Source: Hyphomicrobiaceae bacterium
Lineage (GTDB): Bacteria > Pseudomonadota > Alphaproteobacteria > Rhizobiales > Hyphomicrobiaceae
Assembly (NCBI GenBank): GCA_050250755.1
Contig: JBFWOB010000030.1
Coordinates: forward strand, 14,322 to 78,321
Reading direction: 5' to 3'
DNA length: 64,000 bases
The position numbers were made by a program, and so were the translations under genes. Shown here in pieces: positions 963 to 38,129 of the stretch. Below the pieces are notes generated by a model that did no database searches, had not been told where the DNA came from, and saw only the letters and a list, made by a program, of their open reading frames with translations. Within the stretch, counting starts at the first letter, position 1, and every line of letters begins with the position of its first letter.

Positions 963-981
963 TGGCGCCCAGAAGAGGACT
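963..981. repeat. Direct repeat copy 1 (att-like core resembling a tRNA 3' end)
   Basis: TGGCGCCCAGAAGAGGACT, 18/19 identical to 14872-14890. Lies in an AT-rich non-coding patch. Confidence 0.6.
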
Positions 982-1390: not shown

Positions 1391-2116
1391 CTACTTGGGT
1401 CTTCTGCTGTCAATGATGCGCAGGAGATGGCTAGCCAACATGATCTGCTCGATGGCCTCGACAGGATCGCTAAGTGCCACGTGGCGGTGTGACTGTGGGT
1501 TCTTGTAAGATCCTAGCGCTCCAGCAAAGAGGTGAGCACGTGCCTCTCGCTCGCCAGCTTCGACACTCTTGTCCGTGAGCTTGCCCGTCTTTGGATCGAA
1601 TGCCTCTCTCGCAAGCTTAACCCCGACCACATCATCGGCAGCACCGGTGGCGCGTCGTAGCTCGACCTCGACCTGCTTCATGCCTTGGAACACTGCCACG
1701 TCATACTCACCCCTAACGAATGCGAGCCAGACGCTGTCAGAGATAGAAGAATGGAGCAGAGCCTTCGGAAGCATTTTTGCTGCGGTGAAGTCCTTAAACG
1801 ACTGTTGGGTCTCGAATTGGCGAGCGCGGCGGCTTAGCCTGCGCCAACCGTGAGTGCCATTGATGCCGGGCTCGGGGACGACCAATCCCTGAGCTTGCAG
1901 CCAAGCCCACGCTTCGACCATTGCCAGTTCAATGTCGGCTGCCAAAGTGTGGTGGGGACTGAAGTGCTGGACCAGGCTCTTGGCAAAACGGCCGGGCTCA
2001 AACATCTTATCGCCTTCGATCTCACGAGTGGCGAACAGCAGCCGAGCGCCAAGTTCTTCGGGCTCAAGTCTAAGTATAACTTCAGGCTCGGGAAGAGCCT
2101 TCACGTATTGGTTCAT
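1391..2116 (-). CDS. TIGR02391/Hypoth_Ymh-family protein (R-M associated)
   Basis: C-terminal half fits the Ymh pattern (FQGMKQVEVELRR...EAGEREARAHLFAGALGSYKNPQSHR). Start set at ATG 2116 (MNQYVKAL), 16 nt after the hsdR stop, because the longer ORF-track version overlaps hsdR. Confidence 0.7.
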   Translation of the reverse strand: MNQYVKALPEPEVILRLEPEELGARLLFATREIEGDKMFEPGRFAKSLVQHFSPHHTLAADIELAMVEAWAWLQAQGLVVPEPGINGTHGWRRLSRRARQFETQQSFKDFTAAKMLPKALLHSSISDSVWLAFVRGEYDVAVFQGMKQVEVELRRATGAADDVVGVKLAREAFDPKTGKLTDKSVEAGEREARAHLFAGALGSYKNPQSHRHVALSDPVEAIEQIMLASHLLRIIDSRRPK

Positions 2117-2132
2117 GGGTTCAGGCTCGAAA

Positions 2133-5100: not shown

Positions 5101-5327
5101 GGTAAGTCAGAGTTGAGGCGCTTCAGGGCTCCACGGAGGCGAGCGGGCAAGAAGACTTCGCGCCGTGAGCGGCGGCCGGTCGGGTTCGTGGGGCCGGGTT
5201 CCTCGTGCAGCAAGTTCTGATGTTGCCAGCCCAGCTCTTGCAGCAGCTCCAACGCCGGCCTCTCCACGATCTCCACCTCACTAGCGAGCGCGCCAGAAAG
5301 AGAGCGTGAGGGGGCAGCAGGAGGCAT
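2133..5327 (-). CDS. hsdR: Type I restriction enzyme R subunit
   Basis: 1064 aa. SF2 helicase motifs: Walker A (TQGSGKSF) and DEAH box (VITDEAHRSQY). N-terminal nuclease region. Abuts hsdS. Confidence 0.95.
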   Translation of the reverse strand: MPPAAPSRSLSGALASEVEIVERPALELLQELGWQHQNLLHEEPGPTNPTGRRSRREVFLPARLRGALKRLNSDLPVKALEQAEAELTADRSSMSPVAANREVYRLLRDGVPVQVPQEDGSQKLERVRLVDWTGQGKGENDFLIASQMWIENELYGFRKRPDAIGYLNGIPVLLCEWKAPTQPLQEAYDANLRDYRDTIPRLFDANGFTLLSNGLEAVMGPSHAPFNLFAPWKRLDEDGPESVGLETMLRATCTPGRFLDLIESFLLFEEGRQGLRKLTAKYHQVLGINRAIAAVRHIADNQGRLGVFWHTQGSGKSFSMVMFAEKVLRRLGGNWTFVVVTDRQELDDQIAQTFASVGALTKPIKDAQAQSRAHLRQLLAGQERYVFTLIHKFSADRLELMPVLSERQDIIVITDEAHRSQYDQLAANMRRALPNAAFIGFTGTPLIAGQEERTREVFGDYVSIYNFAQSASDGATVPLFYENRKPELQIASEELREEVYDVIEEAGLDHDQEKKLEREFARQYHLITRNDRLDEIAADLVRHLASRGYLGKAMFVAIDKATAVRMYDKVKAAWAALISEREKSATAAREETKAGINELLAWMKSLDMAVVVSQGQNEIADLKTKGLDILPHRERMQKEDLESRFKNGEDPLRLVFVCAMWITGFDVPTCSTIYLDKPMKNHTLMQTIARANRRAPGKTAGVVVDYVGVFQNLQKALAIYATTSSLSGGSPIRSKDGLVEELVASLAAARAFCVELGVDPEAIPAASKLARLKLIADAVEVLIAPDEQRREFLRRVGVAARAYKALLPDDRATPFLKQVATLHVIGEAVRAKLGPIDISAIYAKIEALLDEKIEGVAITAPIVEDHAVGERIDLSDIDFEKLSGLFQTNPKTASEQMRANAEKKARKLAGENPTRKDLVEKLEMLVAEYNSGTIDAAKFFDALRRFVNEMDEEQQRAGLEGMTERERAVFDLLTRPSPKLTRAQEIAVKAVAKGLLQKLQADLLSPRWELNPQTRASVHSEIKVVLNELPEEPYPQVIFDEKVEAVWQYVYHHMGTRPGNAPSH

Positions 5328-6592
5328 CAGGCAGCGTCCTCGAGTTCGCGCTCGGCACCGGCCACTGACAACTTACCGGACATCAGGCGAGGTAGGAGAA
5401 GAGCACGAGATGCTGCGAGCTTCGTGTTCGAACGTTGGAGCGTCGCTGCCATCTCAACCCCTGCCATCACGTACTTTTGGAATTGATCACAAACCGTGGC
5501 AACTGGCATGGGAACAGGGTATTTCGCCAGAACGGCCCAGCTGGCTCGGGGCATCTTGGTCCCATTTGAGGTCTGCACAGAGTGAGCGACAAACCGGTCA
5601 CTCGACGTCACGGCAAGCACCAAAGCCGCGACTTTCGTCGCTCGGGGACGAATAACGATCGCATCGGATGAGCAGATACCCTCGAAGGGAGCCCATGCCA
5701 CCTTATGGAAGTAAGGTCGTATCTTTCCGAATAGGATGTCCCCCCGCCTGAACTTTAGCTTCGTGCTCGTCACGTCTGCGGCGCTTCCCCAATCGTCGAG
5801 AGTGGTTGAACGGCGTGGGATATGCTCCAGGCCGACGTAGGGCGTCTCGCCGCTCACCTGGGTAGGCTGAACGGCGTCCCGCATCTCCTCGGCAAGCGCC
5901 CCGAGCGTTGTCCAGGTCCATCCGAGGGGCAACCTATCATCACCCTTGTCTCGGACTTCAGTAGCCTTATGCTCCGGAAACCGGAAGTGGACGAACCATT
6001 CCTCGAACAGCCCCCGCGCCATCTCCTCCAGCACCGCGATCCGTCGCCGGTTCACCTCGATCAGATCGTCGTACGCGCCGAGGATGGAGGCGATGTGGCG
6101 TTGCACAGACATCGGAGGAAGCGGGATCCGTAACAGACGAATGTCTCGGATCGGAAGTTGTGGTTGAGCCGCACCACTGGTCAGCGCTGTGACCTGCGCT
6201 CTGAACTGCGGACTTCGAACGACCAGAAACAAGAACTCCGGCAGCAAAGTTGAACGATCTGCTCGCAGTATGACCATGCCGGAATTGATCCTTATTTGGT
6301 CGTACCGCACGCGATCATTGAACCAACCGACGTTCCCGATGGTCCCACGAGTGGTCAACACTATGTCGCCTCGGACGACCCGGCCCTTCCGAAGCTTGCG
6401 TTCCTTATCATTGGTGATGAACTGGCACGACGTGAAATCGAAGCCATTCTTGCGAACGTTTCCCGTATCCAAGAAGAGCCAGTCGCCGACAGCATTGAAA
6501 TCCGACTTCTTCGGATACTCAGTACCGCGATCCCCGTCGATGATTTCAACCGGAGCGTTTCCAAGTGGCCGCTGGACCCATGCGTCAGTCAT
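5327..6592 (-). CDS. hsdS: Type I R-M specificity subunit
   Basis: 421 aa with two tandem target-recognition domains separated by conserved helical spacers (LEEMARGLFEEWFVHFRFP; ASRALLLPRLMSGKL). ATGA overlap with hsdM. Confidence 0.85.
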   Translation of the reverse strand: MTDAWVQRPLGNAPVEIIDGDRGTEYPKKSDFNAVGDWLFLDTGNVRKNGFDFTSCQFITNDKERKLRKGRVVRGDIVLTTRGTIGNVGWFNDRVRYDQIRINSGMVILRADRSTLLPEFLFLVVRSPQFRAQVTALTSGAAQPQLPIRDIRLLRIPLPPMSVQRHIASILGAYDDLIEVNRRRIAVLEEMARGLFEEWFVHFRFPEHKATEVRDKGDDRLPLGWTWTTLGALAEEMRDAVQPTQVSGETPYVGLEHIPRRSTTLDDWGSAADVTSTKLKFRRGDILFGKIRPYFHKVAWAPFEGICSSDAIVIRPRATKVAALVLAVTSSDRFVAHSVQTSNGTKMPRASWAVLAKYPVPMPVATVCDQFQKYVMAGVEMAATLQRSNTKLAASRALLLPRLMSGKLSVAGAERELEDAA

Positions 6593-8148
6593 GCAAGCAG
6601 CTCCGCCGCGTTCTTCGCGATCTGTGCCTGCAGCGTGACAGCCTCTACGTTCAGCGCCTCCAACTCCTCCTGAAGCGCCTCCAACTGCTCTCGGAACTCG
6701 CCGTTGTCCTTCTTTTCACCCGGGGCCAGCCCGACGTACCGGCCGGGATTAAGGCTCCAGCTCTGTTCCTTAATCTCAGCCCGGCTTGCGACCCTGCAGA
6801 GCCCTAACACGTCGCGGTAGCCGCCCTTGGGGAACGCCTCCTTGATGCGCTCCGCACTACCCGCCTGGGTCTCGATCTCGTCACCCCGCCACAGCCGCAC
6901 AATGTTGGCTAGGAACTCGATGTGCCCCGGATCGAACGTGCGATGAGCCCTGGTGACTTGCCGGAACAGATGGCGGGCATCTATGAACAGCACCTCGTCA
7001 GCCCGTTTGCCTTTAGCTTTGCCCTTGTCGAGGAACCATAGCGTTACCGGCAGCGTGACCGTGAAGAACATATTGGGCCCGACCGCGATGATGCAGTCAA
7101 CTGCCCCGGTCTCCACGAGCTTGCGACGCAGGTCCTTCTCGCTGCCGCCCCCGTCACTGGCGCTGTTGGCCATGACGAAGCCGGCCCGCCCGGTCGGGCT
7201 CAGCGCGGCGTAGAACAGATTGATCCAAAGATAGTTGGCGTTGTTGACAGTCGGCAGGCCGAGGGGGAAGCGGGCGTCCACCTTGCCGGCTTCGCTGACT
7301 AGCCGCTTGAGGTCCACTTCCGACTGGTTGAACGGCGGATTGGCCATGACGAAGTCAAATCGCCCGAGGAGTTTGTGTGGGTCGTCGTAATAAGAGTTAG
7401 CGATTTGCACGTCGCCGGAGAGCCCATGCACAGCCAGGTTCAATCGACAAAGACGCAGTGTGTCCGACATCTTCTCAACGCCGAACAGGCTGATCTCTCT
7501 GGCCGGTTGCCTGCGGTGACGGCGAACGAACTCGGCCGAGTGCACGAACATGCCGCCCGAGCCGCAGGCGGGGTCCAATATCGCGCCATGGTATGGCTCG
7601 ATCACCTCAACGATTAGTTTGACAATGGAGGCAGGGGTGAAGAACTCGCCACCCTTTTGCATGTAGGCGGAGGCGAACTGGCCCATGAAGTACTCAAAGA
7701 TCAGACCGTAGGCATCGCCTTCAAGCTTGAGAGGGGCCAGCAGCCGCAGCAACTCCCGCAGCGTTGCGTTCGGTAGCCCGCTGTAGCCATGTGGGAGCGC
7801 CGCGGCAAGATCCGGGTTCGCCTCGGCAACGCTCCTCATCGCCTCGTTCAAAGCGGCCCCGAGGTCGCTGGCCTCGGGCAGCGCGATCAGCTTCGAGAAG
7901 CGGGCGTTGTCCGGCAGGAACACGGCGCCACGAGCTCGGTAGTCCTCCGGCTTCGCCTTCAGCCGACCCTTGAACCTCGGCGCGATCTCGTCTGTGTGGA
8001 TCTTCGCGAACTTGGCCTCCATCTGCCGGAGCGCGATCAGCGCAAGGACTGGTTGCGAGTACTGGTCAGGCCTCAGATCGGTGTTGGTCCAGAGATTGTC
8101 TGCTGTTTTGAACAGCGTCGCCGAGACCCGCTGAAGGTCAGTCTCCAT
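6589..8148 (-). CDS. hsdM: Type I R-M N6-adenine DNA methyltransferase subunit
   Basis: AdoMet motif ILDPACGSGGMF and catalytic NPPFN. Start set at ATG 8148 (METDLQ), preceded by a GGGGGAG RBS. The ORF-track start at 8184 is also possible. Confidence 0.9.
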   Translation of the reverse strand: METDLQRVSATLFKTADNLWTNTDLRPDQYSQPVLALIALRQMEAKFAKIHTDEIAPRFKGRLKAKPEDYRARGAVFLPDNARFSKLIALPEASDLGAALNEAMRSVAEANPDLAAALPHGYSGLPNATLRELLRLLAPLKLEGDAYGLIFEYFMGQFASAYMQKGGEFFTPASIVKLIVEVIEPYHGAILDPACGSGGMFVHSAEFVRRHRRQPAREISLFGVEKMSDTLRLCRLNLAVHGLSGDVQIANSYYDDPHKLLGRFDFVMANPPFNQSEVDLKRLVSEAGKVDARFPLGLPTVNNANYLWINLFYAALSPTGRAGFVMANSASDGGGSEKDLRRKLVETGAVDCIIAVGPNMFFTVTLPVTLWFLDKGKAKGKRADEVLFIDARHLFRQVTRAHRTFDPGHIEFLANIVRLWRGDEIETQAGSAERIKEAFPKGGYRDVLGLCRVASRAEIKEQSWSLNPGRYVGLAPGEKKDNGEFREQLEALQEELEALNVEAVTLQAQIAKNAAELLA

Positions 8149-8371
8149 CGCGCTCCCCCTTTTCCTGCAGCGGGATCTTGCCACACCTGATTAGTGCTTC
8201 GCCAGCGTGGTGCGACAGTGCGAACCGGGTTTGTGCGGCCGCTGCCCGACGATGGGCCCTTCAGGTCGAGATGTTTTGCTGCGATCGTTCGGGCCGGGAT
8301 CGGGGGAGTGATCTCCAAACAAATCCCCCGTATAGGGGGTAGGCGTCAAAAAAACCAGGTGGAGATCTACA

Positions 8372-8860
8372 GTGGCTACAGTCACTTTTGTTCCGTTCAG
8401 TGAGGTCAAGCCCCTCTCTGACTGTCAACCAGGAGACGTGGTCTACAGCCTGAGAAGCAAGGCTGAGGGGCCTTCTCTCGTTGTTGAGACAAATATGCCG
8501 AATATGGGGCAGTTAATCTTGTTAATGCCAAATGGGCCAGTTGCACGGGAGCTGCCCCATGACACGTTGGTGATGCCGTATTCCACACAAGAGTACTGCA
8601 TCGAGGTGCTCGGCTCTGTCTCGCCGTTCGTTGGGGTTCCCGAACAGAACGGCGCGTTGCTGCACCGCGACGGCAACTGGCAGCTTCTTCTTCAAACGAG
8701 TGGAACTTGGGAGTGCTACGACTTCCGCTCCGGCAAGTTCAACGCCCGTTCTGGTCATCAAGAGTATATTTGCCAGAACTGGCGCTTGATCGTGCCGCGG
8801 CTACCTGTCGGTGCAACTTCTGACCCGAAGGTGATCTTTGAACGCCCGGCGAGAGCATAA
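8372..8860 (+). CDS. Hypothetical protein
   Basis: 162-aa ORF with GTG start and plausible amino-acid composition. No recognisable motif. Confidence 0.4.
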   Translation: MATVTFVPFSEVKPLSDCQPGDVVYSLRSKAEGPSLVVETNMPNMGQLILLMPNGPVARELPHDTLVMPYSTQEYCIEVLGSVSPFVGVPEQNGALLHRDGNWQLLLQTSGTWECYDFRSGKFNARSGHQEYICQNWRLIVPRLPVGATSDPKVIFERPARA

Positions 8861-9015
8861 AAGGCCGTAACGCGCCACCCATAGGGTCTCGGCACGTATA
8901 CCTTTCCAGGACACTTTGGACGAGACAGATATGCGTCTCATATGGATGCAAACTTGATATTTAAGACGTTCGTGCTATAAGGTCTAGAGCCATCCAAGAC
9001 GAGAGGGAGGCACGG

Positions 9016-9564
9016 ATGCTGTACGGCTACGCTCGGGTCAGCACGACCGATCAAGACTTGTCGATCCAGAAGGCAGCCCTGAAAGCTGCGGGATGCACTG
9101 TGATCCGGGCAGAGAAGGCGACCGGCACGACCCGCAAGGGCAGGACAGAACTTGAGACCCTGCTGGAGTTCATGCGGAAGGACGACACATTGGTCGTCAC
9201 CCGCATTGACCGGCTCGCCCGCAGCCTGAGGGATCTTCAGAACATCATGCACGAGCTGCGTGAGAAGGGCGCACATCTCAAGGCCACAGAGCAGCCGGTG
9301 GATACCTCAACGCCCGCTGGGAAGGCCTTCCTGGATATGCTGGGGGTGTTCTCTGAGTTCGAGACGAACCTTCGGCGTGAGAGGCAGATGGAAGGCATCC
9401 AAGCGGCAAAAGAACGGGGTGTCTACAAAGGGCGGCCGAAGAGTATCGACGCCGAGGAAGTCAGGAAATTGCTCGACGAGGGGATTGGCGCGACCGGGGT
9501 TGCAAAACGGCTAGGAATAGGGAGAGCGAGCGTTTACCGGCTAGCGTGCATCGGAAAAACCTAA
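9016..9564 (+). CDS. Serine recombinase (resolvase/invertase family)
   Basis: MLYGYARVSTTDQDLSIQ catalytic-Ser motif, resolvase core and C-terminal HTH (GATGVAKRLGIGRASVYR). Confidence 0.9.
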   Translation: MLYGYARVSTTDQDLSIQKAALKAAGCTVIRAEKATGTTRKGRTELETLLEFMRKDDTLVVTRIDRLARSLRDLQNIMHELREKGAHLKATEQPVDTSTPAGKAFLDMLGVFSEFETNLRRERQMEGIQAAKERGVYKGRPKSIDAEEVRKLLDEGIGATGVAKRLGIGRASVYRLACIGKT

Positions 9565-9573
9565 ATACGTGTA

Positions 9574-9602
9574 TTGACACAATTATGTGTTATACTTATA
9601 TC
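9574..9602 (+). promoter_or_regulatory. Sigma70-like promoter with overlapping palindrome
   Basis: TTGACA (9574-9579), 17-nt spacer, TATATC (9597-9602). ACACA-ATTA-TGTGT palindrome at 9577-9590. Downstream GGAGGA RBS at 9621-9626. Confidence 0.4.
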
Positions 9603-9630
9603 TGTGCTGCGAATGAGCACGGAGGACTAC

Positions 9631-10497
9631 ATGCCGGCGAACAACATCAAGAAGCTCCGATCCAAGAAGGGGTGGACGCAAAAGCAGTTGGCTGAAGCCG
9701 CCGAAACCAGTCAGCAGCAGATCCAGCGCATCGAAGCCGGCATTCAAGACGCTCGCTTCGATCTTGCTGTGCGCATCTGCACAGCACTGGGAGAACCGAT
9801 GGACCGGGTGTTTCCCGCGACGGCACTGCCCCTGCGGCGAGCACGGAAACGCGTTGAGAGCGTGGGACAGCTCTTCAGTGACGGCGCAGCCCAAAAGGAG
9901 CTTGAGCAAGCCGGCCTAGACATGGACCCCGCTGCACGAACCTTTGCGTACCGTCTTCGTGGAGGCGCTGAGGGTCGATTTTCGATCTCTGGGCCAGAAA
10001 GTGCCCGCCTATACTTGAACATGCAGCGTGAAGAAGAGGACGATGGGTTTCTTGTCTTTGACGCTGGCTCCCGACGCATTGCCATCAACCCAAAGCATCT
10101 CATCTTCTGTCATTTTCTATTCGATATGCCTCGTGAAGAGCCCGAGGAAGTTGATGGGGACAAAGACTTTGCCGTTCAGATCTTCCTTTCGGACAGCGCC
10201 GAGCCACTAATCTTCAACGTCGATCCAGACACTTCGCAGCTCGATGATGAAGGAGCTGAGGACAACGAGGTTCAACTTCAAGACCTAGTGTTCAACATTG
10301 AACTCGACGTGCGGGAGCGCTTCTGCCTGACAGACGAGGACGGTGAAACCGCTTGGTTCAGAAGTGCGGACGTCGCGATGATCTCGCTCCCGTTGTGTGC
10401 TGTTGAGCCGAAGCTCATGGCGAGCATCGACGACGGTGAAGACGAGAAGGAGGCGGCCGAAGAGACCTCTTCCTCAAAACCCGATCCCGCAGCTTGA
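9631..10497 (+). CDS. XRE-family HTH protein with long acidic C-terminal domain
   Basis: HTH_3 motif (KKLRSKKGWTQKQLAEAAETSQQQIQRIEAG). ATG 9631 lies 4 nt after GGAGGA. The ORF-track start at 9574 falls inside the promoter. C-terminal ~220 aa is Asp/Glu-rich. Confidence 0.8.
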   Translation: MPANNIKKLRSKKGWTQKQLAEAAETSQQQIQRIEAGIQDARFDLAVRICTALGEPMDRVFPATALPLRRARKRVESVGQLFSDGAAQKELEQAGLDMDPAARTFAYRLRGGAEGRFSISGPESARLYLNMQREEEDDGFLVFDAGSRRIAINPKHLIFCHFLFDMPREEPEEVDGDKDFAVQIFLSDSAEPLIFNVDPDTSQLDDEGAEDNEVQLQDLVFNIELDVRERFCLTDEDGETAWFRSADVAMISLPLCAVEPKLMASIDDGEDEKEAAEETSSSKPDPAA

Positions 10498-10561
10498 CGA
10501 ACGCGCCTGTCCTTCCACTCACGGGTGCAAATAAGCCGTCAATGCTCATACAGGAGAAACA

Positions 10562-11230
10562 ATGCGCTACCTCTGCCGTGCAAGCGGCTGTGGCCGCACG
10601 ACTGCGACCCGCTTTTCGCGTTACTGCTCGGCCCACAAATCAAGGCAAAGAAGACACGGTGACCACGCACAAGCAGGCATTACTGCCGCTGACCTCAAGC
10701 CCTATGTCGCCCGTGTGCGCTGCCGCATGGAGAAGAACCAACACAACCCCGCCTGGGACGCCCTGGATGCCCGCTGGAGGGCCATTGTTGAGCACGCCGA
10801 GGGTGTCATCGCCCTGCAGCTTGCTGGCCGTCCTGGGAGCCGAGACGAGCGCACAGCGGCACGTGAAGTGAGCAAGCTCGGAGAAAACATCCCCGCACGG
10901 GCCGTGGTCCAGACGGTGCTCGCCGTAGTGATGATGTGGGAGTTCGAGCCACGGCGTTTCCGCAGCGACCGGTCCTTCAAGACCCAGCTCGTGCGCCGCG
11001 TAAGAGCTCTCACGGATATGAACTACGGCGAGCGCTACCATCATCCGTCGGCGACCGTGAAGCGATACTACAAGGACGTCTCACCACGAGCGACGGCGAT
11101 TTTGGGGCAATGGCTGGTAGAGGCCCTAGGGGGCGCTGGGCTCCATGTGGCCCGTCTCGAAAGGGCCGATCTCGAACAGGTCGAGAGCGAGAAGAGGGCG
11201 CTTCACAAGGCACTTTCGGAGTTGAACTGA
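10562..11230 (+). CDS. Hypothetical protein with N-terminal Cys/His knuckle
   Basis: 222 aa. N-terminus CRASGC...YCSAH. Stop is 1 nt before the next gene's ATG, which implies an operon. Confidence 0.55.
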   Translation: MRYLCRASGCGRTTATRFSRYCSAHKSRQRRHGDHAQAGITAADLKPYVARVRCRMEKNQHNPAWDALDARWRAIVEHAEGVIALQLAGRPGSRDERTAAREVSKLGENIPARAVVQTVLAVVMMWEFEPRRFRSDRSFKTQLVRRVRALTDMNYGERYHHPSATVKRYYKDVSPRATAILGQWLVEALGGAGLHVARLERADLEQVESEKRALHKALSELN

Positions 11231-11231
11231 T

Positions 11232-12650
11232 ATGCGCTCCGAGGATCTACCAGACCACAATTTGAAGCTTCCCCGCAAGAAGCCGAAGCCACCCGAGCCG
11301 CAGAAGCACCTGTGGTTCGACGGATGGATGTCGGCCAATGGATCGGCACTGAAGGGCCTGATCGAGGCAACGACCAAGTTCATTTCACACCACGAGGAGC
11401 ACACCGGAACTCGGATCAGGAAGCGGCGGCCTGTCGATCAGGCTGTTCACCTCCGTAGCATTGACGCTCTCGTGTGTGCTCTTGCCCACGCAGTCCTGGT
11501 CCCGCCGCCCACTGGCCGCATTGCTGTGAAGCTCGGTCATGCAGGGAAGGGACAGTCCCGCTACGATAGCCCTGTGTTCGGCAAAGCACTCTCGCCCCTC
11601 GTGCACCTTCTGTCTGACCTCGACTTTCTGAATTTGAAGCGGTCCACCTTGCGAGGAGAGGTCTCGTCCATTGCGCCCTCACCTTGGTTTGCTCAAAAGG
11701 TCGGGGAGTTTGGGGTTCAGCTAGCGGACTTCGGAAGACATCAAGATGAGGAAGTCATTTCCCTCACTTGCAATGCGAAGCGGTACAGCGGGTGGGCCGA
11801 TGATCGCATTGGGACGCTGTATCGAGAACCCATCGACTACAACGACACACCAACCACAACGAAGTACAGGGCCGAGCTCCGGACACTTAACGAGTTCCTG
11901 AAGAAGGCCGAGATCGACTTCCTCGATGATGGGCTGGAGCCACGAGTAGATCCGTTCGACAGACGCATGAGGCGGCGGTTCATCATCCTCCCCGATCAAC
12001 AAGTCCGCTTCAACCAAGGCGGGCGCCTTTTCGGCGGCTTCTGGCAGCAGCTCAAGAGAGAGCGACGGTCCCACATTCGGATCAATGCTGAGCCTGTCGT
12101 CGTGCTCGACTACGGCTCGATGTTCACAAGGCTGGCCTACGCTGTGATCGGCAAAGAGCCACCGGACGGAGACCTGTACGCCATACCTGGTTACGAGGGC
12201 TACCGCAGCGGGATCAAGCTGGCGATGAATGCGCTTCTCTTCGACAAAAGCCCCAGGAGGTCGAAGTGGCCCAAGGAAATAGGGATCGGCGTCGGCGACG
12301 ATGAGGATGCAAAAATGGATCGACGAGGGTCCGCGGCACAGTACGAGGCGCGCCTACCAACCGGCTCGACAGTGAAGAAGGTTAGGGATGCCACCCTGTC
12401 AGTGCATCCTCACCTGAGCAAGGCGTGGGGCAGGCAACTCGGCTACCAACTCATGTTCCTTGAAAGTGAGATTATGGTGGAGGTCCTTCGGCAACTCGCC
12501 AATCGGCGTATCCCAGCTCTGGGCCTTCACGACGGACTGTTGGTCTCTTCATCGAAGGCAACCGAGGCTGCCGGGGTGATGAGAGAAGTAGGTCGGGAGA
12601 AGTCGGGCTTGCTTCTGCCGGTCACTCAGAATGAACCTGAGGAGGAGTAG
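11232..12650 (+). CDS. Putative minimal superfamily-A (Pol I/T7-like) nucleotide polymerase
   Basis: 472 aa. Motif A VVVLDYGSMFTRLAYA (Asp codon 12108-12110). Motif B YRSGIKLAMNALLF (12204-12242). Motif C LGLHDGLLV (12528-12533). No exonuclease domain recognised. The function call is inference. Confidence 0.5.
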   Translation: MRSEDLPDHNLKLPRKKPKPPEPQKHLWFDGWMSANGSALKGLIEATTKFISHHEEHTGTRIRKRRPVDQAVHLRSIDALVCALAHAVLVPPPTGRIAVKLGHAGKGQSRYDSPVFGKALSPLVHLLSDLDFLNLKRSTLRGEVSSIAPSPWFAQKVGEFGVQLADFGRHQDEEVISLTCNAKRYSGWADDRIGTLYREPIDYNDTPTTTKYRAELRTLNEFLKKAEIDFLDDGLEPRVDPFDRRMRRRFIILPDQQVRFNQGGRLFGGFWQQLKRERRSHIRINAEPVVVLDYGSMFTRLAYAVIGKEPPDGDLYAIPGYEGYRSGIKLAMNALLFDKSPRRSKWPKEIGIGVGDDEDAKMDRRGSAAQYEARLPTGSTVKKVRDATLSVHPHLSKAWGRQLGYQLMFLESEIMVEVLRQLANRRIPALGLHDGLLVSSSKATEAAGVMREVGREKSGLLLPVTQNEPEEE

Positions 12651-13156
12651 ATAAGGGATATAGGTTGTGGTGGTCGTGCTTGTTCTACCCTCACGTCACT
12701 TTTTTTGCTACCTCTCTTCCTCCATCAACAAGACCCGTAAGGTTGGGCTTCGTCGCTCCGCCTCGGAAGAAGCGCCATCGGCCGGGTTGGCTTATCGTCA
12801 AGCACCTTGGCAATTCTGACAGCGTAAAGGGGCCCAACTTCCTACATCGGATGTTCATGTGGGGCTGGGGTCCGCGAATAACTGCATCCCCTCATTGTCC
12901 AAGCGACAAGCCGTCGTTCCGGGAAGGCAGTGGGTGCTATCTCTCGCAGCCCCGTGAGGGACAGGTTAGCGAGAGCAAATTGCAACAACTACGGTGATGG
13001 CGGGATCGCACCGACAGTGGCGTTTGGGAGGGGCGCAAAGCTTGACCCAATCCGCGCCTTTCCGGTCGATCTCGATACTTCTTCGGAGTTTGAATTGCAG
13101 GATAGAAAGGCCGCCGCTGGTCGATGCGCACAAGCATGCTACTCGTGCATTGCTCG

Positions 13157-14770
13157 TCAACTCTGGTCATCCCCTCCAGCCCCTTCCCATAAGCCGGGAA
13201 GCGGGATCAGACGGACTGCACGCTCCATGAGGCGGAGCGAAACTTCGCCGTAGGCGTCCGCTGCGGTGCGAGGGGCGTGTCCCTGTATCGCATCGAGAAC
13301 ACGCTTGTCGATGCCCTGCTCTAGACCAAGTGCACGGAACAGGTGCCGCCACGCATGGTTTGGGTCCTTCCGATGCCGACGTCCCACCTCAAGCCCAAGC
13401 GTGTGGACCCACGCTGCCACGTTTTTCGCTAGAATCTTAGGCTGTGGCCTCTTTGCTCCGACCTTCCGTTGGGAGGGGTCGAAGAACAGCGGTCCCGATC
13501 CTTTGGTTTCGACGAACTTAAGAAAGTCAACGCTTAGGACGTAGGGGTGAAGAGGAACCCGGCGTTCAGACGAAACGGTCTTCACACTGCCAGCTTCAGC
13601 CTTAATATCCATGAACCAGATATCGCCCTCTTGCCGAATGTCTTCGGCCCTGAGTTGACAAATCTCTGAGACCCGAGCCCCCGCTAGGGCACAGAGGAGA
13701 GGCACCCACCGGTAGACGGGGCTACTCTCTCTTGCGGCTGCTTGGAGGATCGCGGCGGCATCTGACAGGTCAAAGTTGCGCATCCTTTGGCCGGGCTTAG
13801 TTCCTCGTTTGATCGTAACACCTGCCGCAGCGTTGTGCTCGACGCGGCCGTTATCCACGGCCCAGCCCAAGACGACGCGAAGGGCAGCCAGCTTGCTTTT
13901 TCTAATAGTGGCCGGGGAATTACCCATAGCGAGAAGGCGATCCTTCCAAGCAATCACTGACTGCTTGCAGATGGCGTTAAGCTGGTCGGTTCCAGAAAAT
14001 GCGATGTAGGCTTCGATGTGCTTGCGCCACTCATCAACCGTCTTCTGCTTTGGTTGGGCTTCCTTGGCCCAAGCTTCGAATGCGTCCACGAGCGTTGCGC
14101 TACGCTGTTGGGAACTGCTCGACCGGTTGCCGCTTCTGCGGACAGGGAACCGGGCCTCCACGGGGTCCGGGGAGTAGTCGCCCTCGGAACGCCTTTCCAG
14201 CGTCTGGGCCGCCTTGATCAGAGCCGAGGCGACCGCGGTTAGGAGATCCGCCCTCGTCTTTTTATCCAAGCTGTAACCGTGGCGTTCCAGCCAGGGATCG
14301 AGCTTAATGTGTGGCTCCAGAATGCGTTCGGCCTGACGTGGGTGGTAAGGTGCGCTCTCGACCCCATCCGACGTCGGATCGAGGTACGCAGCGCCGTCCA
14401 GCAGCAAATCCTGGAAAATCGACCATTGCTCGGTCGGCCCGGGCTCATCTTCATGTTGGCCCACGAAGTCTCGATACCACTCACCCGCGATCTCATGGAT
14501 TTCCCGATGTGACAGCCCCGCCGGCGCCTGACGGGCAGTAGCCCAGCGAGCTTCGACCTGCGCCGACACGGACGAATGTCGTAGGCGAGCTTCCGCGATG
14601 TCCTTCGTTTTGAGGGAGACCTTTACGGTGGGGCCGAGTTTCACTGTGCTCGTCAACCCCGCTACGTCCACAGAGAAGCTGCGTCCGGACAGTACCTGGA
14701 GGAGGTCTGAGGGCAATCTTGCACGGTAGTACCAGACCCCCGTAGTGGGGTGGCGCCAAGGCTGAGCCAT
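13157..14770 (-). CDS. Tyrosine recombinase / phage-type integrase
   Basis: 537 aa from ATG 14770 (MAQPWRHP). C-terminal catalytic signature: ARVSEICQL, HAWRHLFR, AYGEV. Confidence 0.9.
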   Translation of the reverse strand: MAQPWRHPTTGVWYYRARLPSDLLQVLSGRSFSVDVAGLTSTVKLGPTVKVSLKTKDIAEARLRHSSVSAQVEARWATARQAPAGLSHREIHEIAGEWYRDFVGQHEDEPGPTEQWSIFQDLLLDGAAYLDPTSDGVESAPYHPRQAERILEPHIKLDPWLERHGYSLDKKTRADLLTAVASALIKAAQTLERRSEGDYSPDPVEARFPVRRSGNRSSSSQQRSATLVDAFEAWAKEAQPKQKTVDEWRKHIEAYIAFSGTDQLNAICKQSVIAWKDRLLAMGNSPATIRKSKLAALRVVLGWAVDNGRVEHNAAAGVTIKRGTKPGQRMRNFDLSDAAAILQAAARESSPVYRWVPLLCALAGARVSEICQLRAEDIRQEGDIWFMDIKAEAGSVKTVSSERRVPLHPYVLSVDFLKFVETKGSGPLFFDPSQRKVGAKRPQPKILAKNVAAWVHTLGLEVGRRHRKDPNHAWRHLFRALGLEQGIDKRVLDAIQGHAPRTAADAYGEVSLRLMERAVRLIPLPGLWEGAGGDDQS

Positions 14771-14871
14771 TCTGATGATCACGGACTGTGTACCTCTCCT
14801 GTGTACCTGCAGGAGAGGAAGAACCCATTGAAGCGCCTTAGTTATCTGAAAACATGGCGCTTTTAGGATCA

Positions 14872-14895
14872 GTGGTGCCCAGAAGAGGACTCGAA
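14872..14895 (-). repeat. Direct repeat copy 2 = truncated tRNA 3' end (att remnant)
   Basis: The reverse complement, GTTCGAGTCCTCTTCTGGGCACCA, reads as T-loop, T-stem 3' half, acceptor 3' strand, discriminator and CCA. The upstream tRNA body is absent. Confidence 0.65.
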
Positions 14896-15367
14896 CAAAG
14901 ACTACAATAAATTGATATTGTTATATTTAATGTCTCTTGACCTTCCAAATGAGTGTCCTGAAGAATGCCTGAATGAGTGTCCTCCGCCGGTCTGCGTCAG
15001 GCTGCCGCACAACCATCTGCCCCTCACTGAACAGTTTCGCCCCTGAAGGTGCGCTGACCCACCCCCAACCGCGGCTGTGTCCTGCGGACACTCGGTTGAT
15101 CGGCAACTCGCTTAACGGCAGACAAGGACAAGGCCATCTGCAATGACGATGTTCATTACTTTTGCCCAAGTGGCTGCGAAATGACTATCGCCGAACTGTT
15201 CGATCCGAACTTCACACTGCAAGTGCTCATCCCGCCGGCCGGATGACGAGGCGCACACGCGGCTCCGCGCGCCTTGCTGTCCGGCCCTTCATGCGCTTTA
15301 CCCTGCGCGCTGGTGCCTGCAGTCCCGGCTCACTCCCACCGTGCGATCCGCACGACGGCAGCCCTGT

Positions 15368-15601
15368 TCAATCCTGATTGTCGCTTCCGTATTCGGAGGT
15401 GGAGGTGAACTTGTACCGGTTCACCCAGGCATCCAGGTCCTCATGCACGTAGACGACCTTGGCGCGCTTGCCGGGCCCAAGCTTATGATACGACGGGCCG
15501 GTGCCCTTGAGCCGCATGTCCTGCAACGTGCGCTCCGCCAGCCGGAGATAGGCGGCCGCCTCGCCGGTGGTCAGGTAGCGTACGTCCTCGTCATCGGTCA
15601 T
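15368..15601 (-). CDS. AlpA/MerR-type HTH protein (excisionase-like)
   Basis: 77 aa. YLTTGEAAAYLRLAERTLQDMRLKGTGP is typical of AlpA-family excisionases and regulators. Confidence 0.75.
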   Translation of the reverse strand: MTDDEDVRYLTTGEAAAYLRLAERTLQDMRLKGTGPSYHKLGPGKRAKVVYVHEDLDAWVNRYKFTSTSEYGSDNQD

Positions 15602-16234: not shown

Positions 16235-16252
16235 GCTGACAGCGCAGCCGTT

Positions 16253-38120: not shown

Positions 38121-38129
38121 GGACCGCTG

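What the first reader, a model, noticed from the sequence alone, without database searches (positions are those of the whole stretch)
10562..12650. Stand-alone minimal family-A-like polymerase (motifs A, B, C) coupled to a Zn-knuckle protein
The 472-aa ORF has no obvious textbook identity. Its last ~180 aa nevertheless carry the three palm/fingers motifs of superfamily-A polymerases in the correct order. Motif A is VVVLDYGSMFTRLAYA (compare Pol I DYSQIELR..A; Asp codon at 12108-12110). Motif B is YRSGIKLAMNALLF, i.e. R-x3-K-x3-N-x3-F at 12204-12242 (compare RRxAKxxNFGxxYG, or T7 RNAP RxxxKxxxMxxxY). Motif C is LGLHDGLLV at 12528-12533 (compare VHDE). I could not recognise any 3'-5' or 5'-3' exonuclease module. 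The N-terminal ~290 aa are unassigned. The gene starts 1 nt after a 222-aa protein with a CxxxxC...CxxH knuckle, and both follow the XRE gene. From memory, a family of minimal PolA/T7-RNAP-related enzymes in mobile elements (TV-Pol; Iyer, Abhiman and Aravind 2008) was defined computationally and remains essentially uncharacterised biochemically. Here the protein could be a self-replication module for the excised island or a nucleotide-polymerising conflict effector.
Basis: partly seen in the sequence, partly recalled or inferred. Interest (0 to 1): 0.75.

Follow-up and report, generated by a model that had tools for sequence, protein, structure and literature searches.

The report
Minimal PolA-like polymerase of a genomic island
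A 13.9-kb island, apparently inserted at a tRNA gene, carries a stripped-down relative of DNA polymerase I and a zinc-knuckle partner protein; this gene pair was predicted by computer in 2008 (the TV-Pol family), probably primes and copies the island's own DNA, and has never been tested in this branch.

Summary
ORFs 10562-11230 (222 aa) and 11232-12650 (472 aa) exist, 1 nt apart, and all quoted motif coordinates are exact.

**The 472-aa protein**
- It has no Pfam or NCBIfam hit.
- Its AlphaFold model (pLDDT 90.9) matches only family-A DNA polymerases in the PDB (66 hits, best E 7.6e-6).
- A profile-profile alignment to Klenow (E 4e-5) pairs R265/D293/R325/K329/F337/H433-D434 with R668/D705/R754/K758/Y766/H881-D882.
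- These residues are 99-100% conserved in 224 homologues.
- It shows all four defining features of the TV-Pol family (Iyer 2008).

**The 222-aa protein**
- It is a basic (pI 10.3) all-alpha protein with an invariant C-x4-C...C-x2-H...RHG knuckle.
- It has no PDB structural relative.
- Its family lies next to the polymerase gene in 42 of 66 complete loci, upstream or downstream.

**Context**
Both genes belong to the backbone (serine resolvase, polymerase pair, tyrosine integrase) of 8.6-15 kb islands. These islands are flanked by direct repeats of tRNA 3' ends. Here the repeats are at 963-981 and 14873-14891, and the cargo is a type I R-M system. No helicase is present.

**Verdict**
This is a new member of a known, computationally defined kind. 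The likely function, a two-subunit primase-polymerase replicating the excised island, is inferred, not shown.

The parts
963..981 (.). Left direct repeat (putative att core), TGGCGCCCAGAAGAGGACT; a copy of a tRNA-Leu 3' end
   Evidence: This is a 19-nt direct repeat, 18 of 19 identical to the copy at 14873-14891. It is one of only 3 repeat families found in 18.5 kb. The pattern has 2 matches in the window against 0.11 expected by chance. The same repeat flanks the islands in L052 and L015.
1391..2284 (-). Cargo: Hypoth_Ymh-domain protein (297 aa)
   Evidence: Pfam PF09509, E 8.9e-24.
2133..8184 (-). Cargo: type I restriction-modification operon, with hsdR at 2133-5327, hsdS at 5327-6592 and hsdM at 6589-8184
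   Evidence: Pfam hits: SWI2_SNF2, HSDR_N and T1RH-like_C for hsdR, Methylase_S for hsdS, and N6_Mtase plus HsdM_N for hsdM.
8372..8860 (+). Unknown 162-aa ORF between the R-M operon and the resolvase
   Evidence: It is an ORF only. It has no Pfam hit and no homologue in the 80 related loci. Whether it belongs to the element backbone is uncertain.
9016..9564 (+). Small serine recombinase (resolvase/invertase type, 182 aa); backbone gene
   Evidence: Pfam Resolvase E 1.6e-40 and HTH_7 E 3.8e-10. Homologues lie within 10 kb of the polymerase gene in 52 of 80 loci.
9574..10497 (+). XRE-type HTH protein with a long acidic C-terminal region (pI 4.4); local regulator, not conserved with the module
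   Evidence: HTH_3 at residues 25-77, E 1.6e-12. A homologue is found in only 1 of 80 loci.
10562..11230 (+). p222: basic CCCH zinc-knuckle plus helical-bundle protein, the conserved partner of the polymerase
   Evidence: C5, C10, C22, H25 and G33 are invariant, and R31 and H32 are kept in at least 90% of sequences. The motif is retained in the divergent partners examined. The AF2 model has pLDDT 92.8 and shows 7 helices plus one hairpin. Foldseek finds no PDB relative, best E 0.38. The pI is 10.3. Its family is adjacent to the polymerase gene in 42 of 66 complete loci.
11232..12650 (+). TV-Pol-type minimal family-A-like polymerase (472 aa): thumb, palm and fingers only
   Evidence: The AF2 model has pLDDT 90.9. 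Foldseek PDB hits are all PolA. BFVD hits to ~430-aa phage proteins reach E 4.5e-21. hhalign against a PolA profile gives E 4e-5 over 342 columns. phrog_4756 matches at E 7e-21. There are 4644 representative clusters at E <= 1e-3.
12024..12026 (+). R265 codon: beta-hairpin arginine (aligned with Klenow R668)
   Evidence: G264-R265 are kept in 224/224 and 223/224 sequences. GRLFGG aligns with Klenow GRLSS.
12108..12110 (+). D293 codon: motif A catalytic aspartate (aligned with Klenow D705)
   Evidence: Kept in 224/224 sequences. It lies at the end of strand E287-294. LDYGSMFTR aligns with ADYSQIELR.
12204..12242 (+). Helix O / motif B: R325-x3-K329-x3-N333-x3-F337 (aligned with Klenow R754, K758, F762, Y766)
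   Evidence: R325 is kept in 223/224 and K329 in 224/224 sequences. The motif lies on helix H325-337.
12528..12533 (+). H433-D434 codons: motif C (aligned with Klenow H881-D882)
   Evidence: Both are kept in 221/221 sequences. They sit at the turn between strands E429-431 and E435-439.
12651..13156 (.). 506-bp non-coding spacer between the convergent polymerase and integrase genes; role unknown
   Evidence: No convincing ORF, iterons or terminator were found. The corresponding spacer is only 18-135 nt in L002, L011, L017, L021 and L024.
13157..14782 (-). Tyrosine integrase (541 aa) at the tRNA-proximal end of the island
   Evidence: Pfam DUF6538 E 5.6e-11 and Phage_integrase E 3e-9. Homologues occupy the same position next to intact tRNA genes in L052, L015, L008, L021, L058 and L082.
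14873..14896 (-). Right direct repeat: the last 24 nt of a tRNA-Leu(CAG) gene (GTTCGAGTCCTCTTCTGGGCACCA). The rest of the tRNA is missing.
   Evidence: The sequence is. It is identical to the 3' end of the L052 tRNA-Leu. ARAGORN finds no tRNA in the window. The 5' half of the tRNA is absent from the window.

Best explanation
**What it is.** The 472-aa protein is an active, exonuclease-less polymerase of the TV-Pol family. This family is the minimal, deep-branching relatives of family-A DNA polymerases: thumb, palm and fingers only. Its gene is translationally coupled to that of a basic CCCH zinc-knuckle and helical-bundle protein (p222).

**Where it sits.** Both genes are backbone genes of a 13.9-kb island (963-14891) flanked by direct repeats of a tRNA-Leu 3' end; in related genomes such islands sit at intact tRNA genes. 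The island also encodes a tyrosine integrase and a small serine resolvase, and it carries a type I R-M system as cargo.

**Proposed mechanism.**
1. The integrase excises the island as a circle.
2. p222 binds the single-stranded template or origin through its zinc knuckle and basic helical body.
3. p222 thereby lets the polymerase start a strand de novo and extend it, probably with dNTPs. This would make the pair a two-subunit primase-polymerase, analogous to CcPol-MP of SCCmec.
4. Because the island encodes no helicase, host helicase and replisome components are presumably recruited.
5. The resolvase resolves replicated multimers.

**Shown:** the fold, the conserved active site, the gene linkage and the island boundaries.

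**Inferred:** catalytic activity, priming, the role of p222, replication of the excised form and the role of the resolvase.
For: **Polymerase identity.**
- The AF2 model has pLDDT 90.9.
- Foldseek against the PDB gives 66 hits at E <= 1e-3, and the top 50 are all Pol I-type enzymes.
- hhalign of a 224-sequence family profile against a PolA profile gives E 4.1e-5 over 342 columns. It aligns R265=R668, D293=D705, R300=R712, R325=R754, K329=K758, F337=Y766 and H433-D434=H881-D882.
- Those residues are 99-100% conserved in 224 homologues.
- The secondary structure has the right topology. Motif A lies at a strand end, helix O is 325-337, motif C sits at a beta turn, and there is a two-helix thumb at 38-58 and 67-89.

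**Partner.**
- The CCCH...RHG motif is invariant.
- The p222 family is adjacent to the polymerase gene in 42 of 66 complete loci: 22 just upstream and 18 just downstream.
- In the window the two genes are 1 nt apart.
- p222 has a pI of 10.3.

**Mobile-element backbone.**
- A resolvase is present in 52 of 80 loci and an integrase in 33 of 80.
- Direct repeats of tRNA 3' ends flank 8.6-15.2 kb islands in the window and in six of 14 related loci examined. In five of those six the integrase lies beside an ARAGORN-confirmed tRNA gene; L025 has the repeat but no called tRNA.
- The same layout is seen in Bradyrhizobium ottawaense with different cargo.

**Precedent.**
- Iyer et al. 2008 predicted prim-pol activity for TV-Pols and described this neighbourhood type (PMC2579912).
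- CcPol-MP is a dNTP primase that needs its small partner (PMC7581432).
- Primases commonly use a zinc-binding domain or a helical bundle as an accessory module (same paper).
Against: - No activity data exist for this clade.
- Sequence-level links to PolA are absent. There is no Pfam DNA_pol_A hit, and an hmmsearch of the family HMM against E. coli Pol I finds nothing.
- The hhalign probability is only 70%, and Foldseek TM-scores to PDB PolAs are low (about 0.26).
- Klenow E883 is Gly or Ala here.
- No helicase, no recognisable origin and no iterons were found in the island.
- p222 is not an OB fold and has no known structural relative, so its role is argued by analogy only.
- One third of complete loci lack p222 and have other small neighbours instead.
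- Relatives are rare on plasmids (3 of 72,556 records), so autonomous replication is not their usual lifestyle.
- The tRNA next to the window's island is truncated.
Confidence: 0.6

Rival explanations
1. Conflict effector. The polymerase and p222 form an anti-phage or anti-plasmid system that synthesises a nucleic-acid product on infection, as defence-associated reverse transcriptases do. The XRE protein would act as regulator and the island would be a defence island.
For: - The island carries defence-type cargo: a type I R-M system and a Hypoth_Ymh protein.
- A relative in B. ottawaense carries a STAND NTPase.
- An XRE gene precedes the pair.
- No helicase or origin was identified.
Against: - PADLOC gives no meaningful hit for either protein.
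- The pair is the constant backbone alongside the recombinases, whereas the defence genes are the variable cargo.
- The XRE gene is shared by only 1 of 80 loci.
- TV-Pol relatives fused to D5-type helicases serve as the only replicative enzyme of virophages (PMC2579912).
Confidence: 0.12
2. Single-subunit RNA polymerase. The enzyme makes RNA, either transcripts of island genes or RNA primers only, like T7-type RNA polymerases and mitochondrial RNA polymerase. p222 would act as a specificity factor.
For: - TV-Pols are described as related to both PolA and T7-like RNA polymerases and were proposed to have primase (RNA polymerase) activity (PMC2579912).
- Motif C is H-D-G/A rather than H-D-E, which is closer to the T7 RNA polymerase H-D-S motif (my own knowledge; residue data).
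- The Klenow steric-gate Glu is not conserved: F298 in 168 of 224 sequences, Ala in 22 and Gly in 6.
Against: - All top-50 PDB fold matches are DNA polymerases I, and none is T7 RNA polymerase.
- The position equivalent to T7 RNAP Y639 (Klenow Y766) is Phe in 187 of 217 sequences, so it lacks the hydroxyl that selects rNTPs. The equivalence is from my own knowledge; the residue data are.
- At 472 aa there is no room for a promoter-recognition N-terminal domain or specificity loop.
- The one characterised relative uses dNTPs (PMC7581432).
Confidence: 0.12
3. Replicative-transposition enzyme. As Iyer et al. proposed, the element is a replicative transposon. TV-Pol would copy the element during resolvase-mediated transposition rather than replicating an excised circle.
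For: - A serine resolvase is the most frequent neighbour (52 of 80 loci).
- Iyer et al. report duplicated copies in Brucella flanked by ~200-nt repeats (PMC2579912).
Against: - The window and six of 14 related loci examined show the signature of site-specific integration by a tyrosine integrase at tRNA 3' ends: direct repeats of 17-79 nt. In five of the six, an intact tRNA lies next to the integrase gene.
- This signature points to excision and integration, not transposition.
- Small resolvases are not known to transpose DNA on their own (my own knowledge).
Confidence: 0.1
4. Degenerate or non-catalytic polymerase-like protein with a structural or regulatory role.
For: - There is no sequence-level hit to any curated polymerase model.
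- Rice 2023 describes RRM-only 'Pol' relics lacking the catalytic Asp residues in similar contexts (PMC10061031).
Against: - Every catalytic and substrate-binding residue expected of a PolA active site is 99-100% conserved across 224 homologues down to ~32% identity.
- Thumb, palm and fingers are all complete in a high-confidence model.
Confidence: 0.04

Closest known systems
TV-Pol family (transposon-virus polymerases; Iyer, Abhiman and Aravind 2008, Biol Direct 3:39, PMC2579912)
   Same: - It has the same minimal architecture: a two-helix thumb, a beta-hairpin Arg, an RRM palm with two Asp, and fingers with a conserved Asp plus RxxxK.
- It has no nuclease domain and is 400-600 aa long.
- It has the same neighbourhood type that the paper describes for one subset: a gamma-delta-type resolvase and/or a lambda-type integrase, an adjacent stand-alone helical protein, and R-M operons nearby.
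- The host range overlaps, in particular alphaproteobacteria such as Methylobacterium.
- The Zamilon virophage replication protein, a relative of the founding Sputnik V13 (relationship from my own knowledge), is a Foldseek hit at E 1.1e-3.
   Different: - I could not align it directly with a named founding member, because no sequences or supplement were available.
- The paper calls these elements replicative transposons. Here they behave as tRNA-integrating islands bounded by tRNA 3'-end repeats.
- Whether p222 equals the paper's 'TV-PolN' helical domain or its 'C3RHD' zinc domain could not be checked. No p222-polymerase fusion appeared among the 120 listed of 277 partner homologues.
CcPol-MP primase-polymerase of SCCmec and the PolA-SSB primases of Bacillota (Bebel 2020, PMC7581432; Rice 2023, PMC10061031)
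   Same: - A family-A-type catalytic subunit lacks a working exonuclease.
- It is encoded next to a small partner protein in an integrative island that also carries site-specific recombinases and often R-M cargo.
- It is the best functional analogy for a two-subunit, dNTP-using primase-polymerase.
   Different: - CcPol is a recognisable truncated Pol I relative, closest to the CHEAP subfamily (PMC10201439). The protein here is undetectable by PolA sequence models.
- The CcPol partner is an OB-fold SSB without zinc. Here the partner is an all-alpha protein with a CCCH zinc knuckle.
- CcPol-MP sits in an operon with the Cch2 helicase. No helicase is present here.
- The hosts are Bacillota with large serine recombinases. 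Here the hosts are mainly Alphaproteobacteria with a tyrosine integrase plus a small resolvase.
Bacterial DNA polymerase I polymerase domain (Klenow, KlenTaq, Bst large fragment)
   Same: - It has a right-hand fold.
- Equivalents of R668, D705, R712, R754, K758, Y766, H881 and D882 are aligned and conserved.
   Different: - It has no 3'-5' or 5'-3' exonuclease domain.
- Identity is about 10-14%, and Pfam DNA_pol_A does not match.
- E710 is replaced by Phe, F762 by Asn, Y766 by Phe and E883 by Gly or Ala.
- At 472 aa it is about half the size of E. coli Pol I (928 aa).
Pipolins (piPolB-encoding integrative elements)
   Same: They are small integrative elements encoding their own primer-independent DNA polymerase. 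They are often at tRNA genes, have tyrosine recombinases and carry defence cargo (PMC11551731 abstract; PMC10061031 introduction).
   Different: The polymerase there belongs to family B, not family A. No zinc-knuckle partner is described in the passages read; the absence of homology to the present proteins was not tested here and rests on my own knowledge.

Membership tests
TV-Pol (Iyer et al. 2008) | Thumb formed by two antiparallel helices at the N-terminus | tested here: met
   The AF2 model (pLDDT 90.9) has long helices at 38-58 and 67-89. I could not inspect coordinates to confirm that they pack antiparallel.
TV-Pol (Iyer et al. 2008) | [quoted passage not shown] | tested here: met
   Strands 247-252 and 265-267 are in the model. 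G264 is kept in 224/224 and R265 in 223/224 sequences. R265 aligns with Klenow R668 in GRL.
TV-Pol (Iyer et al. 2008) | RRM-like palm with two conserved metal-binding aspartates | tested here: met
   D293 is kept in 224/224 and D434 in 221/221 sequences. They align with Klenow D705 and D882. One is at a strand end and the other at a beta turn.
TV-Pol (Iyer et al. 2008) | Fingers inserted after palm strand 1, with a conserved Asp and an RxxxK motif | tested here: met
   D314 is kept in 224/224, R325 in 223/224 and K329 in 224/224 sequences, on helix 325-337. R325 and K329 align with Klenow R754 and K758.
TV-Pol (Iyer et al. 2008) | No fused or linked nuclease domain; association with resolvase, integrase or transposase, or with a D5 helicase | tested here: met
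   There are no nuclease domains. A resolvase is found in 52 of 80 loci and an integrase in 33 of 80. No D5 helicase is present, which matches the paper's second, recombinase-linked subset.
TV-Pol (Iyer et al. 2008) | Significant sequence similarity to a named founding member (for example Sputnik V13, or the Brucella or Methylobacterium proteins) | tested here: inconclusive
   There is only a structural hit to the Zamilon virophage replication protein (E 1.1e-3, prob 0.99). Founding sequences and the paper's supplement were not available.
Family A DNA polymerases (Pfam DNA_pol_A, PF00476) | Match to the curated sequence model | tested here: not met
   There is no DNA_pol_A hit even at E <= 1. 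phmmer and hmmsearch against PDB sequences find no polymerase. The family HMM against E. coli Pol I finds nothing.
Family A DNA polymerases (superfamily level) | Right-hand fold with motifs A, B and C in order and conserved catalytic residues | tested here: met
   Foldseek gives 66 PDB hits at E <= 1e-3, and the 50 listed are all PolA. hhalign gives E 4.1e-5 with all motif residues aligned.
CcPol-MP / PolA-SSB primases | Small OB-fold ssDNA-binding partner encoded next to the polymerase | tested here: not met
   A partner exists, but it is all-alpha with a CCCH knuckle (AF2 pLDDT 92.8) and has no OB-fold or other PDB match.
CcPol-MP / PolA-SSB primases | Helicase (Cch2-type) in the same operon | tested here: not met
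   There is no helicase between 963 and 14891 apart from the R-M motor subunit HsdR. None is present inside the B. ottawaense island.
CcPol-MP / PolA-SSB primases | Partner-dependent de novo DNA priming with dNTPs | not testable with these tools
   This needs biochemistry.
T7-like single-subunit RNA polymerases | N-terminal promoter-binding domain, specificity loop, and Tyr at the helix-O position that selects rNTPs (Y639) | tested here: not met
   At 472 aa the whole length aligns to the polymerase core. The helix-O position is Phe in 187 of 217 sequences and Tyr in 5. No T7 RNAP appears among the top 50 fold hits. The Y639 equivalence is from my own knowledge.
Known anti-phage defence systems (PADLOC-DB v2) | Match of either protein to a defence-system model | tested here: not met
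   The polymerase gives only a 34-residue RmrT fragment hit at E 0.0048. p222 gives none.
tRNA-integrating genomic islands | Tyrosine integrase at one end, and direct repeats of a tRNA 3' end at both ends | tested here: met
   In the window the repeats are at 963-981 and 14873-14891, with the integrase at 13157-14782. Intact tRNA genes are confirmed in related loci L052, L015, L008, L021, L058 and L082. The window's own tRNA is truncated.

The most novel reading that the evidence does not exclude
The p222-polymerase pair would be a new kind of primase. In it, a zinc-knuckle and helical-bundle subunit with no relative among solved (PDB) structures converts a minimal PolA-type palm into a primer-independent DNA polymerase. 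That enzyme would replicate small tRNA-integrating islands without an element-encoded helicase. This would be a third independent solution to priming with a family-A fold, after CcPol-MP. It would combine in one accessory protein both devices used by DnaG/PrimPol-type primases (a zinc domain) and AEP-type primases (a helical bundle). The interchangeable partner slot, where p222 is replaced by HNH_3-like, Bro/KilA-like or other small proteins in a mutually exclusive way, would then mark a modular family of PolA-based initiators.
Probability: 0.35. Interest if true: 0.7.

Novelty: new member of a known kind. Interest (0 to 1): 0.45.

Why it matters
**A large, unannotated family.** TV-Pols are thought to resemble the ancestral core of family-A DNA polymerases and T7-type RNA polymerases. 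Apart from the atypical CcPol, none has been studied biochemically (PMC7581432). The family found here has 4644 representative clusters at 50% identity. It has no Pfam or NCBIfam model, is annotated everywhere as 'hypothetical', and is absent from the 2023 reclassification of PolAs (PMC10201439).

**Testable hypotheses.** The analysis here gives:
- a confident structural model;
- a residue-by-residue map to Klenow;
- a strictly conserved zinc-knuckle partner;
- defined island boundaries.

Together these make concrete tests possible: is this a two-subunit primase-polymerase, and do these small cargo-carrying islands (type I R-M here, a STAND NTPase in a relative) replicate after excision?

**If confirmed.** It would add a new primase architecture. 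It would also help explain how a widespread class of alphaproteobacterial genomic islands is maintained and spread.

Tried and rejected
**Sequence-level searches that found no polymerase**
- Pfam, NCBIfam and PADLOC scans of both proteins gave nothing useful.
- phmmer and profile hmmsearch against PDB sequences gave only chance hits.
- hhalign of the 38-sequence alignment against the single E. coli Pol I sequence failed, with probability 0.2%.
- hmmsearch of a 224-sequence HMM against Pol I gave no hit.
- Only a profile-profile comparison with a PolA alignment built from E. coli plus 10 phage polymerases worked.

**Partner protein**
- Foldseek of p222 against the PDB gave no relative.
- A profile search for p222-polymerase fusions found none among the 120 listed hits.
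- The apparent 659-aa fusion in L006 has part of p222 in another frame, so I regard it as a frameshift or assembly artefact.

**DNA features**
- A search for iterons, an origin, promoters or terminators in 8000-15600 gave nothing above chance.
- An Rfam scan of 1-20000 gave nothing relevant.
- A search for the 5' half of tRNA-Leu in the window found it absent.

**Context elsewhere**
- Phage relatives sit among hypothetical genes, and no p222 relative was found among the neighbours checked.
- Only 3 plasmid records have relatives.
- The supplement of Iyer et al. is not held as text, so TV-PolN and C3RHD could not be compared.

**Ideas rejected**
- OB-fold SSB partner: the model is all-alpha.
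- XRE as part of the module: it is found in 1 of 80 loci.
- Inactive relic: the active site is invariant.

Full report
**1. The observation**

One is at 10562..11230 (222 aa) and the other at 11232..12650 (472 aa). Both are on the + strand and are separated by a single nucleotide. They lie downstream of an HTH_3/XRE ORF at 9574..10497.

The quoted codon positions are exact:
- D293 at 12108-12110
- R325..F337 at 12204-12242
- H433-D434 at 12528-12533

The organism is a Hyphomicrobiaceae MAG. An identical protein is on record as 'hypothetical protein'.

**2. What the 472-aa protein is**

Curated sequence libraries are silent. There is no Pfam or NCBIfam hit and only a fragmentary PADLOC hit. One PHROG of unknown function matches (phrog_4756, E 7e-21). 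Sequence searches of the PDB give nothing.

The family is nevertheless large:
- 276 close homologues, all unnamed
- 4644 representative clusters at E <= 1e-3 in an exhaustive search
- almost all members 400-530 aa long

An AlphaFold2 model built on 38 homologues is confident (pLDDT 90.9, pTM 0.87). Foldseek against the PDB returns 66 matches at E <= 1e-3. All 50 listed are Pol I-type family-A DNA polymerases such as Taq, Bst, Klenow, Aquifex, M. smegmatis and apicoplast Pol (best E 7.6e-6, probability 1.00). TM-scores are low, about 0.26.

Against predicted viral structures, the best matches are ~430-aa phage proteins (E 4.5e-21, TM up to 0.69). One of them is annotated as a DNA polymerase. 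Ordinary phage PolAs and the Zamilon virophage replication protein follow.

Single-sequence and HMM-versus-sequence comparisons with E. coli Pol I failed. I therefore built a PolA profile from the E. coli polymerase domain plus ten diverse phage PolAs and compared it with a 224-sequence family profile. hhalign gave E 4.1e-5 (probability 70%) over 342 columns, covering residues 28-470.

The alignment pairs the following:

| This protein | Klenow |
|---|---|
| GR265LFGG | GR668LSS |
| LD293YGSMFTR300 | AD705YSQIELR712 |
| R325SGIK329LAMN333ALLF337 | R754RSAK758AINF762GLIY766 |
| LH433D434G | VH881D882E |

The model's secondary structure has the matching topology:
- motif A at the end of strand 287-294
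- helix O at 325-337
- motif C at the turn between strands 429-431 and 435-439
- two long N-terminal helices (38-58, 67-89) as a thumb

Across 224 homologues down to ~32% identity, conservation is near-total:
- R265 in 223/224
- D293 in 224/224
- D314 in 224/224
- R325 in 223/224
- K329 in 224/224
- H433 and D434 in 221/221

This is the signature of an enzyme under selection for catalysis, not a relic.

The whole protein is polymerase core. There is no room for an exonuclease domain.

**3. The 222-aa neighbour**

Its homologues are all stand-alone, unnamed proteins of 130-300 aa without Pfam domains.

Residues C5, C10, C22, H25 and G33 are invariant, and R31 and H32 nearly so. The motif C-x4-C-x(10-18)-C-x2-H-x5-RHG survives in partners that share only ~20% identity overall.

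The AlphaFold2 model (pLDDT 92.8) shows a short knuckle. C5 and C10 lie around two mini-strands, and C22 and H25 lie at the start of the first helix. I read this arrangement as treble-clef-like. It is followed by a seven-helix body and one beta-hairpin.

Foldseek finds no PDB relative (best E 0.38). The protein is very basic (pI 10.3, net charge +16).

**4. Linkage and genomic context**

I fetched 80 loci with polymerase homologues from reference genomes and searched their ORFs with the window's proteins.

Among 66 loci with a complete polymerase gene and at least 1.2 kb on both sides, 42 carry a p222-family gene:
- 22 immediately upstream, often overlapping by 4 nt or within 10 nt
- 18 immediately downstream, 60-250 nt away on the same strand
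- 2 elsewhere

Adjacency that is preserved through a change of gene order argues for a functional pair.

Loci lacking p222 carry other small neighbours that never co-occur with it:
- a 137-aa protein with weak HNH_3 similarity
- a protein that from its sequence looks Bro/KilA-like (my reading; Pfam gave no hit)
- a 151-aa protein

A small serine resolvase lies within 10 kb in 52 of 80 loci, and a window-type tyrosine integrase in 33 of 80. The XRE gene appears in only 1 of 80.

In Bradyrhizobium ottawaense the layout is STAND NTPase | resolvase | two small ORFs | p222-like | polymerase | integrase on the opposite strand, followed by core genes.

**5. The element**

A 19-nt direct repeat sits at 963-981 and 14873-14891 (18 of 19 identical). 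The right copy lies about 90 nt beyond the integrase start. It is the last 24 nt of a tRNA-Leu(CAG) gene, identical to the intact tRNA-Leu in locus L052.

In related loci the integrase lies next to an intact tRNA:
- Leu-CAG in L052, L015 and L008
- Glu-CTC in L082
- Thr-GGT in L021
- Ala-CGC in L058

In six of the 14 loci examined for such repeats, a 17-79-nt copy of the tRNA 3' end lies 8.6-15.2 kb away.

These are therefore tRNA-integrating genomic islands. They share a constant backbone (resolvase, p222-polymerase, integrase) and carry variable cargo.

In the window the island spans 963-14891 (13.9 kb). Its cargo is a Hypoth_Ymh protein and a type I R-M operon. The tRNA body itself is missing from the window, so the site has been rearranged or a further element lies to the right.

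The island encodes no helicase. I found no iterons or other origin-like repeats. Relatives are rare on plasmids (3 of 72,556 records) and in phages (10 of 50,697 records).

**6. Comparison with what is known**

Iyer, Abhiman and Aravind (2008, PMC2579912) defined the TV-Pol family by four features:
- a bi-helical thumb
- a beta-hairpin Arg
- an RRM palm with two Asp
- fingers with a conserved Asp plus RxxxK

They also noted the absence of nuclease domains. All of these are met here.

They further describe a subset whose gene is adjacent to a stand-alone all-helical protein. That subset sits in neighbourhoods with gamma-delta resolvase, lambda-type integrase or transposases, in regions rich in R-M operons, in genomes that include several alphaproteobacteria. 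This is the window's situation. I therefore file the protein as a TV-Pol member.

Two caveats apply. I could not align it with a named founding member. I also could not check whether p222 corresponds to their 'TV-PolN' or 'C3RHD' domains, because the supplement is not held.

The only biochemically studied protein assigned to TV-Pol is CcPol of SCCmec. It is a dNTP-using polymerase that becomes a primase only in complex with the small protein MP, later modelled as an OB-fold SSB. It works with the Cch2 helicase (PMC7581432, PMC10061031). Bebel et al. state that no other TV-Pol had been characterised.

CcPol is in fact a recognisable truncated Pol I relative (PMC10201439). It is much closer to canonical PolA than the protein here. 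That 2023 reclassification of PolAs does not include this family.

Membership of the CcPol-MP / PolA-SSB group fails on the tested features. The partner is not an OB fold, there is no helicase, and the host group and recombinases differ. The functional analogy remains the best available.

Bebel et al. point out that primases typically use either a zinc-binding domain (DnaG, PrimPol) or a helical bundle (AEP primases) to hold the template and initiating nucleotides. p222 has both.

**7. Most likely mechanism and rivals**

I propose that the pair is a two-subunit primase-polymerase. It would start replication of the excised island circle, host factors would supply helicase and bulk synthesis, and the resolvase would resolve multimers.

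The fold, the conserved active site, the gene linkage and the island structure are shown. Catalysis, priming, the role of p222 and replication of the excised form are inferred.

Substrate choice is uncertain:
- The Klenow steric-gate Glu is usually Phe here (168 of 224 sequences).
- The Y766 / T7-Y639 position is Phe (187 of 217 sequences).
- Both weakly favour dNTPs, but they rest on a remote alignment.

My confidence that this is an active PolA-superfamily / TV-Pol polymerase is about 0.9. My confidence in the full replication scenario is about 0.55-0.6.

The rivals are a defence effector, an RNA polymerase, a replicative-transposition enzyme and an inactive relic. They are listed with their evidence in the rival explanations. 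None is excluded except, in practice, the last.

**8. Verdict**

The finding is a genuine, deep-branching polymerase with a conserved zinc-knuckle partner, but the kind has been known computationally since 2008, so it is a new member of a known kind.

Its value lies in three points:
- The clade is large, unannotated and biochemically untouched.
- The partner protein and island boundaries are now defined.
- The primase hypothesis is directly testable.

Noticed in passing
window 14873-14896 (- strand) and 14897-15020: Only the last 24 nt of a tRNA-Leu(CAG) gene remain next to the integrase. Upstream of this fragment the sequence is AT-rich and unrelated to tRNA. ARAGORN finds no tRNA anywhere in the 64-kb window, and the 5' half of the tRNA is absent. 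The attachment site therefore seems to have been disrupted, or a second element lies to the right.
   Followed up: partly
window 15368-17211: Just right of the island lie an HTH_17 (AlpA/excisionase-like) 77-aa ORF at 15368-15601 (-) and a zeta-toxin-like P-loop protein at 16253-16882 (-). A 109-aa ORF ends at the start of the toxin gene and could be its antitoxin. GC content stays low (0.60-0.62) up to about 18 kb. This may be a second, adjacent mobile element or a remnant of one.
   Followed up: no
window 12651-13156: A 506-bp non-coding spacer lies between the convergent polymerase and integrase genes. In relatives L002, L011, L017, L021 and L024 the corresponding spacer is only 18-135 nt. 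I found no repeats, terminator or Rfam match in it. It could hold an origin, a small RNA or a decayed gene.
   Followed up: partly
window 9574-10497: The XRE protein has a ~200-residue, highly acidic C-terminal extension (whole-protein pI 4.4, net charge -26) with no family match. It is shared by only 1 of 80 related loci. An acidic DNA-mimic-like tail next to two very basic proteins is curious.
   Followed up: no
loci L009, L010, L012, L016, L017, L019, L021, L023, L024, L032, L035, L064: Where the p222 partner is missing, the polymerase gene is flanked by other small proteins that never co-occur with p222. These are a 137-aa protein with weak HNH_3 similarity (7 loci), a 156-aa protein that looks Bro/KilA-like from its sequence (no Pfam hit; 6 loci), a 151-aa protein (5 loci) and a 131-aa protein (2 loci). 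This suggests an exchangeable partner slot.
   Followed up: partly
locus L006 9260-11239: There is an apparent 659-aa fusion of p222 and the polymerase in a MAG. Part of p222 is also detected in a second reading frame (9717-9929), so this is probably a frameshift or assembly error rather than a natural fusion.
   Followed up: partly
locus L084 (Logan contig DRR186587_475, 8549 bp) versus L082 4817-13385: An assembly contig of 8549 bp contains just the B. ottawaense island, from the STAND NTPase to the integrase. This is nearly the same length as the repeat-bounded island in the chromosome (8568 bp). It could simply reflect an assembly break at the duplicated 79-nt tRNA-Glu sequence, or it could derive from an excised circle. 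I did not examine the contig ends.
   Followed up: no
locus L082 4817-4891 and 13385-13459: In B. ottawaense the island is flanked by two complete copies of tRNA-Glu(CTC), sharing a 79-nt exact repeat. Integration there duplicates the whole tRNA rather than only its 3' end.
   Followed up: partly
window 656-1351 (- strand): A 231-aa ORF without any family match spans the left direct repeat (963-981). It would therefore cross the island boundary, so it is probably not a real gene, or it is a chimeric one.
   Followed up: no
window 32000-44000 and 50000-58000: Further blocks of lower GC (0.59-0.61, against 0.64-0.67 for 18-32 kb and 44-50 kb) contain long ORFs, for example 33538-36690 (1050 aa) and 51341-55150 (1269 aa). 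These may be additional horizontally acquired regions. I did not examine them.
   Followed up: no
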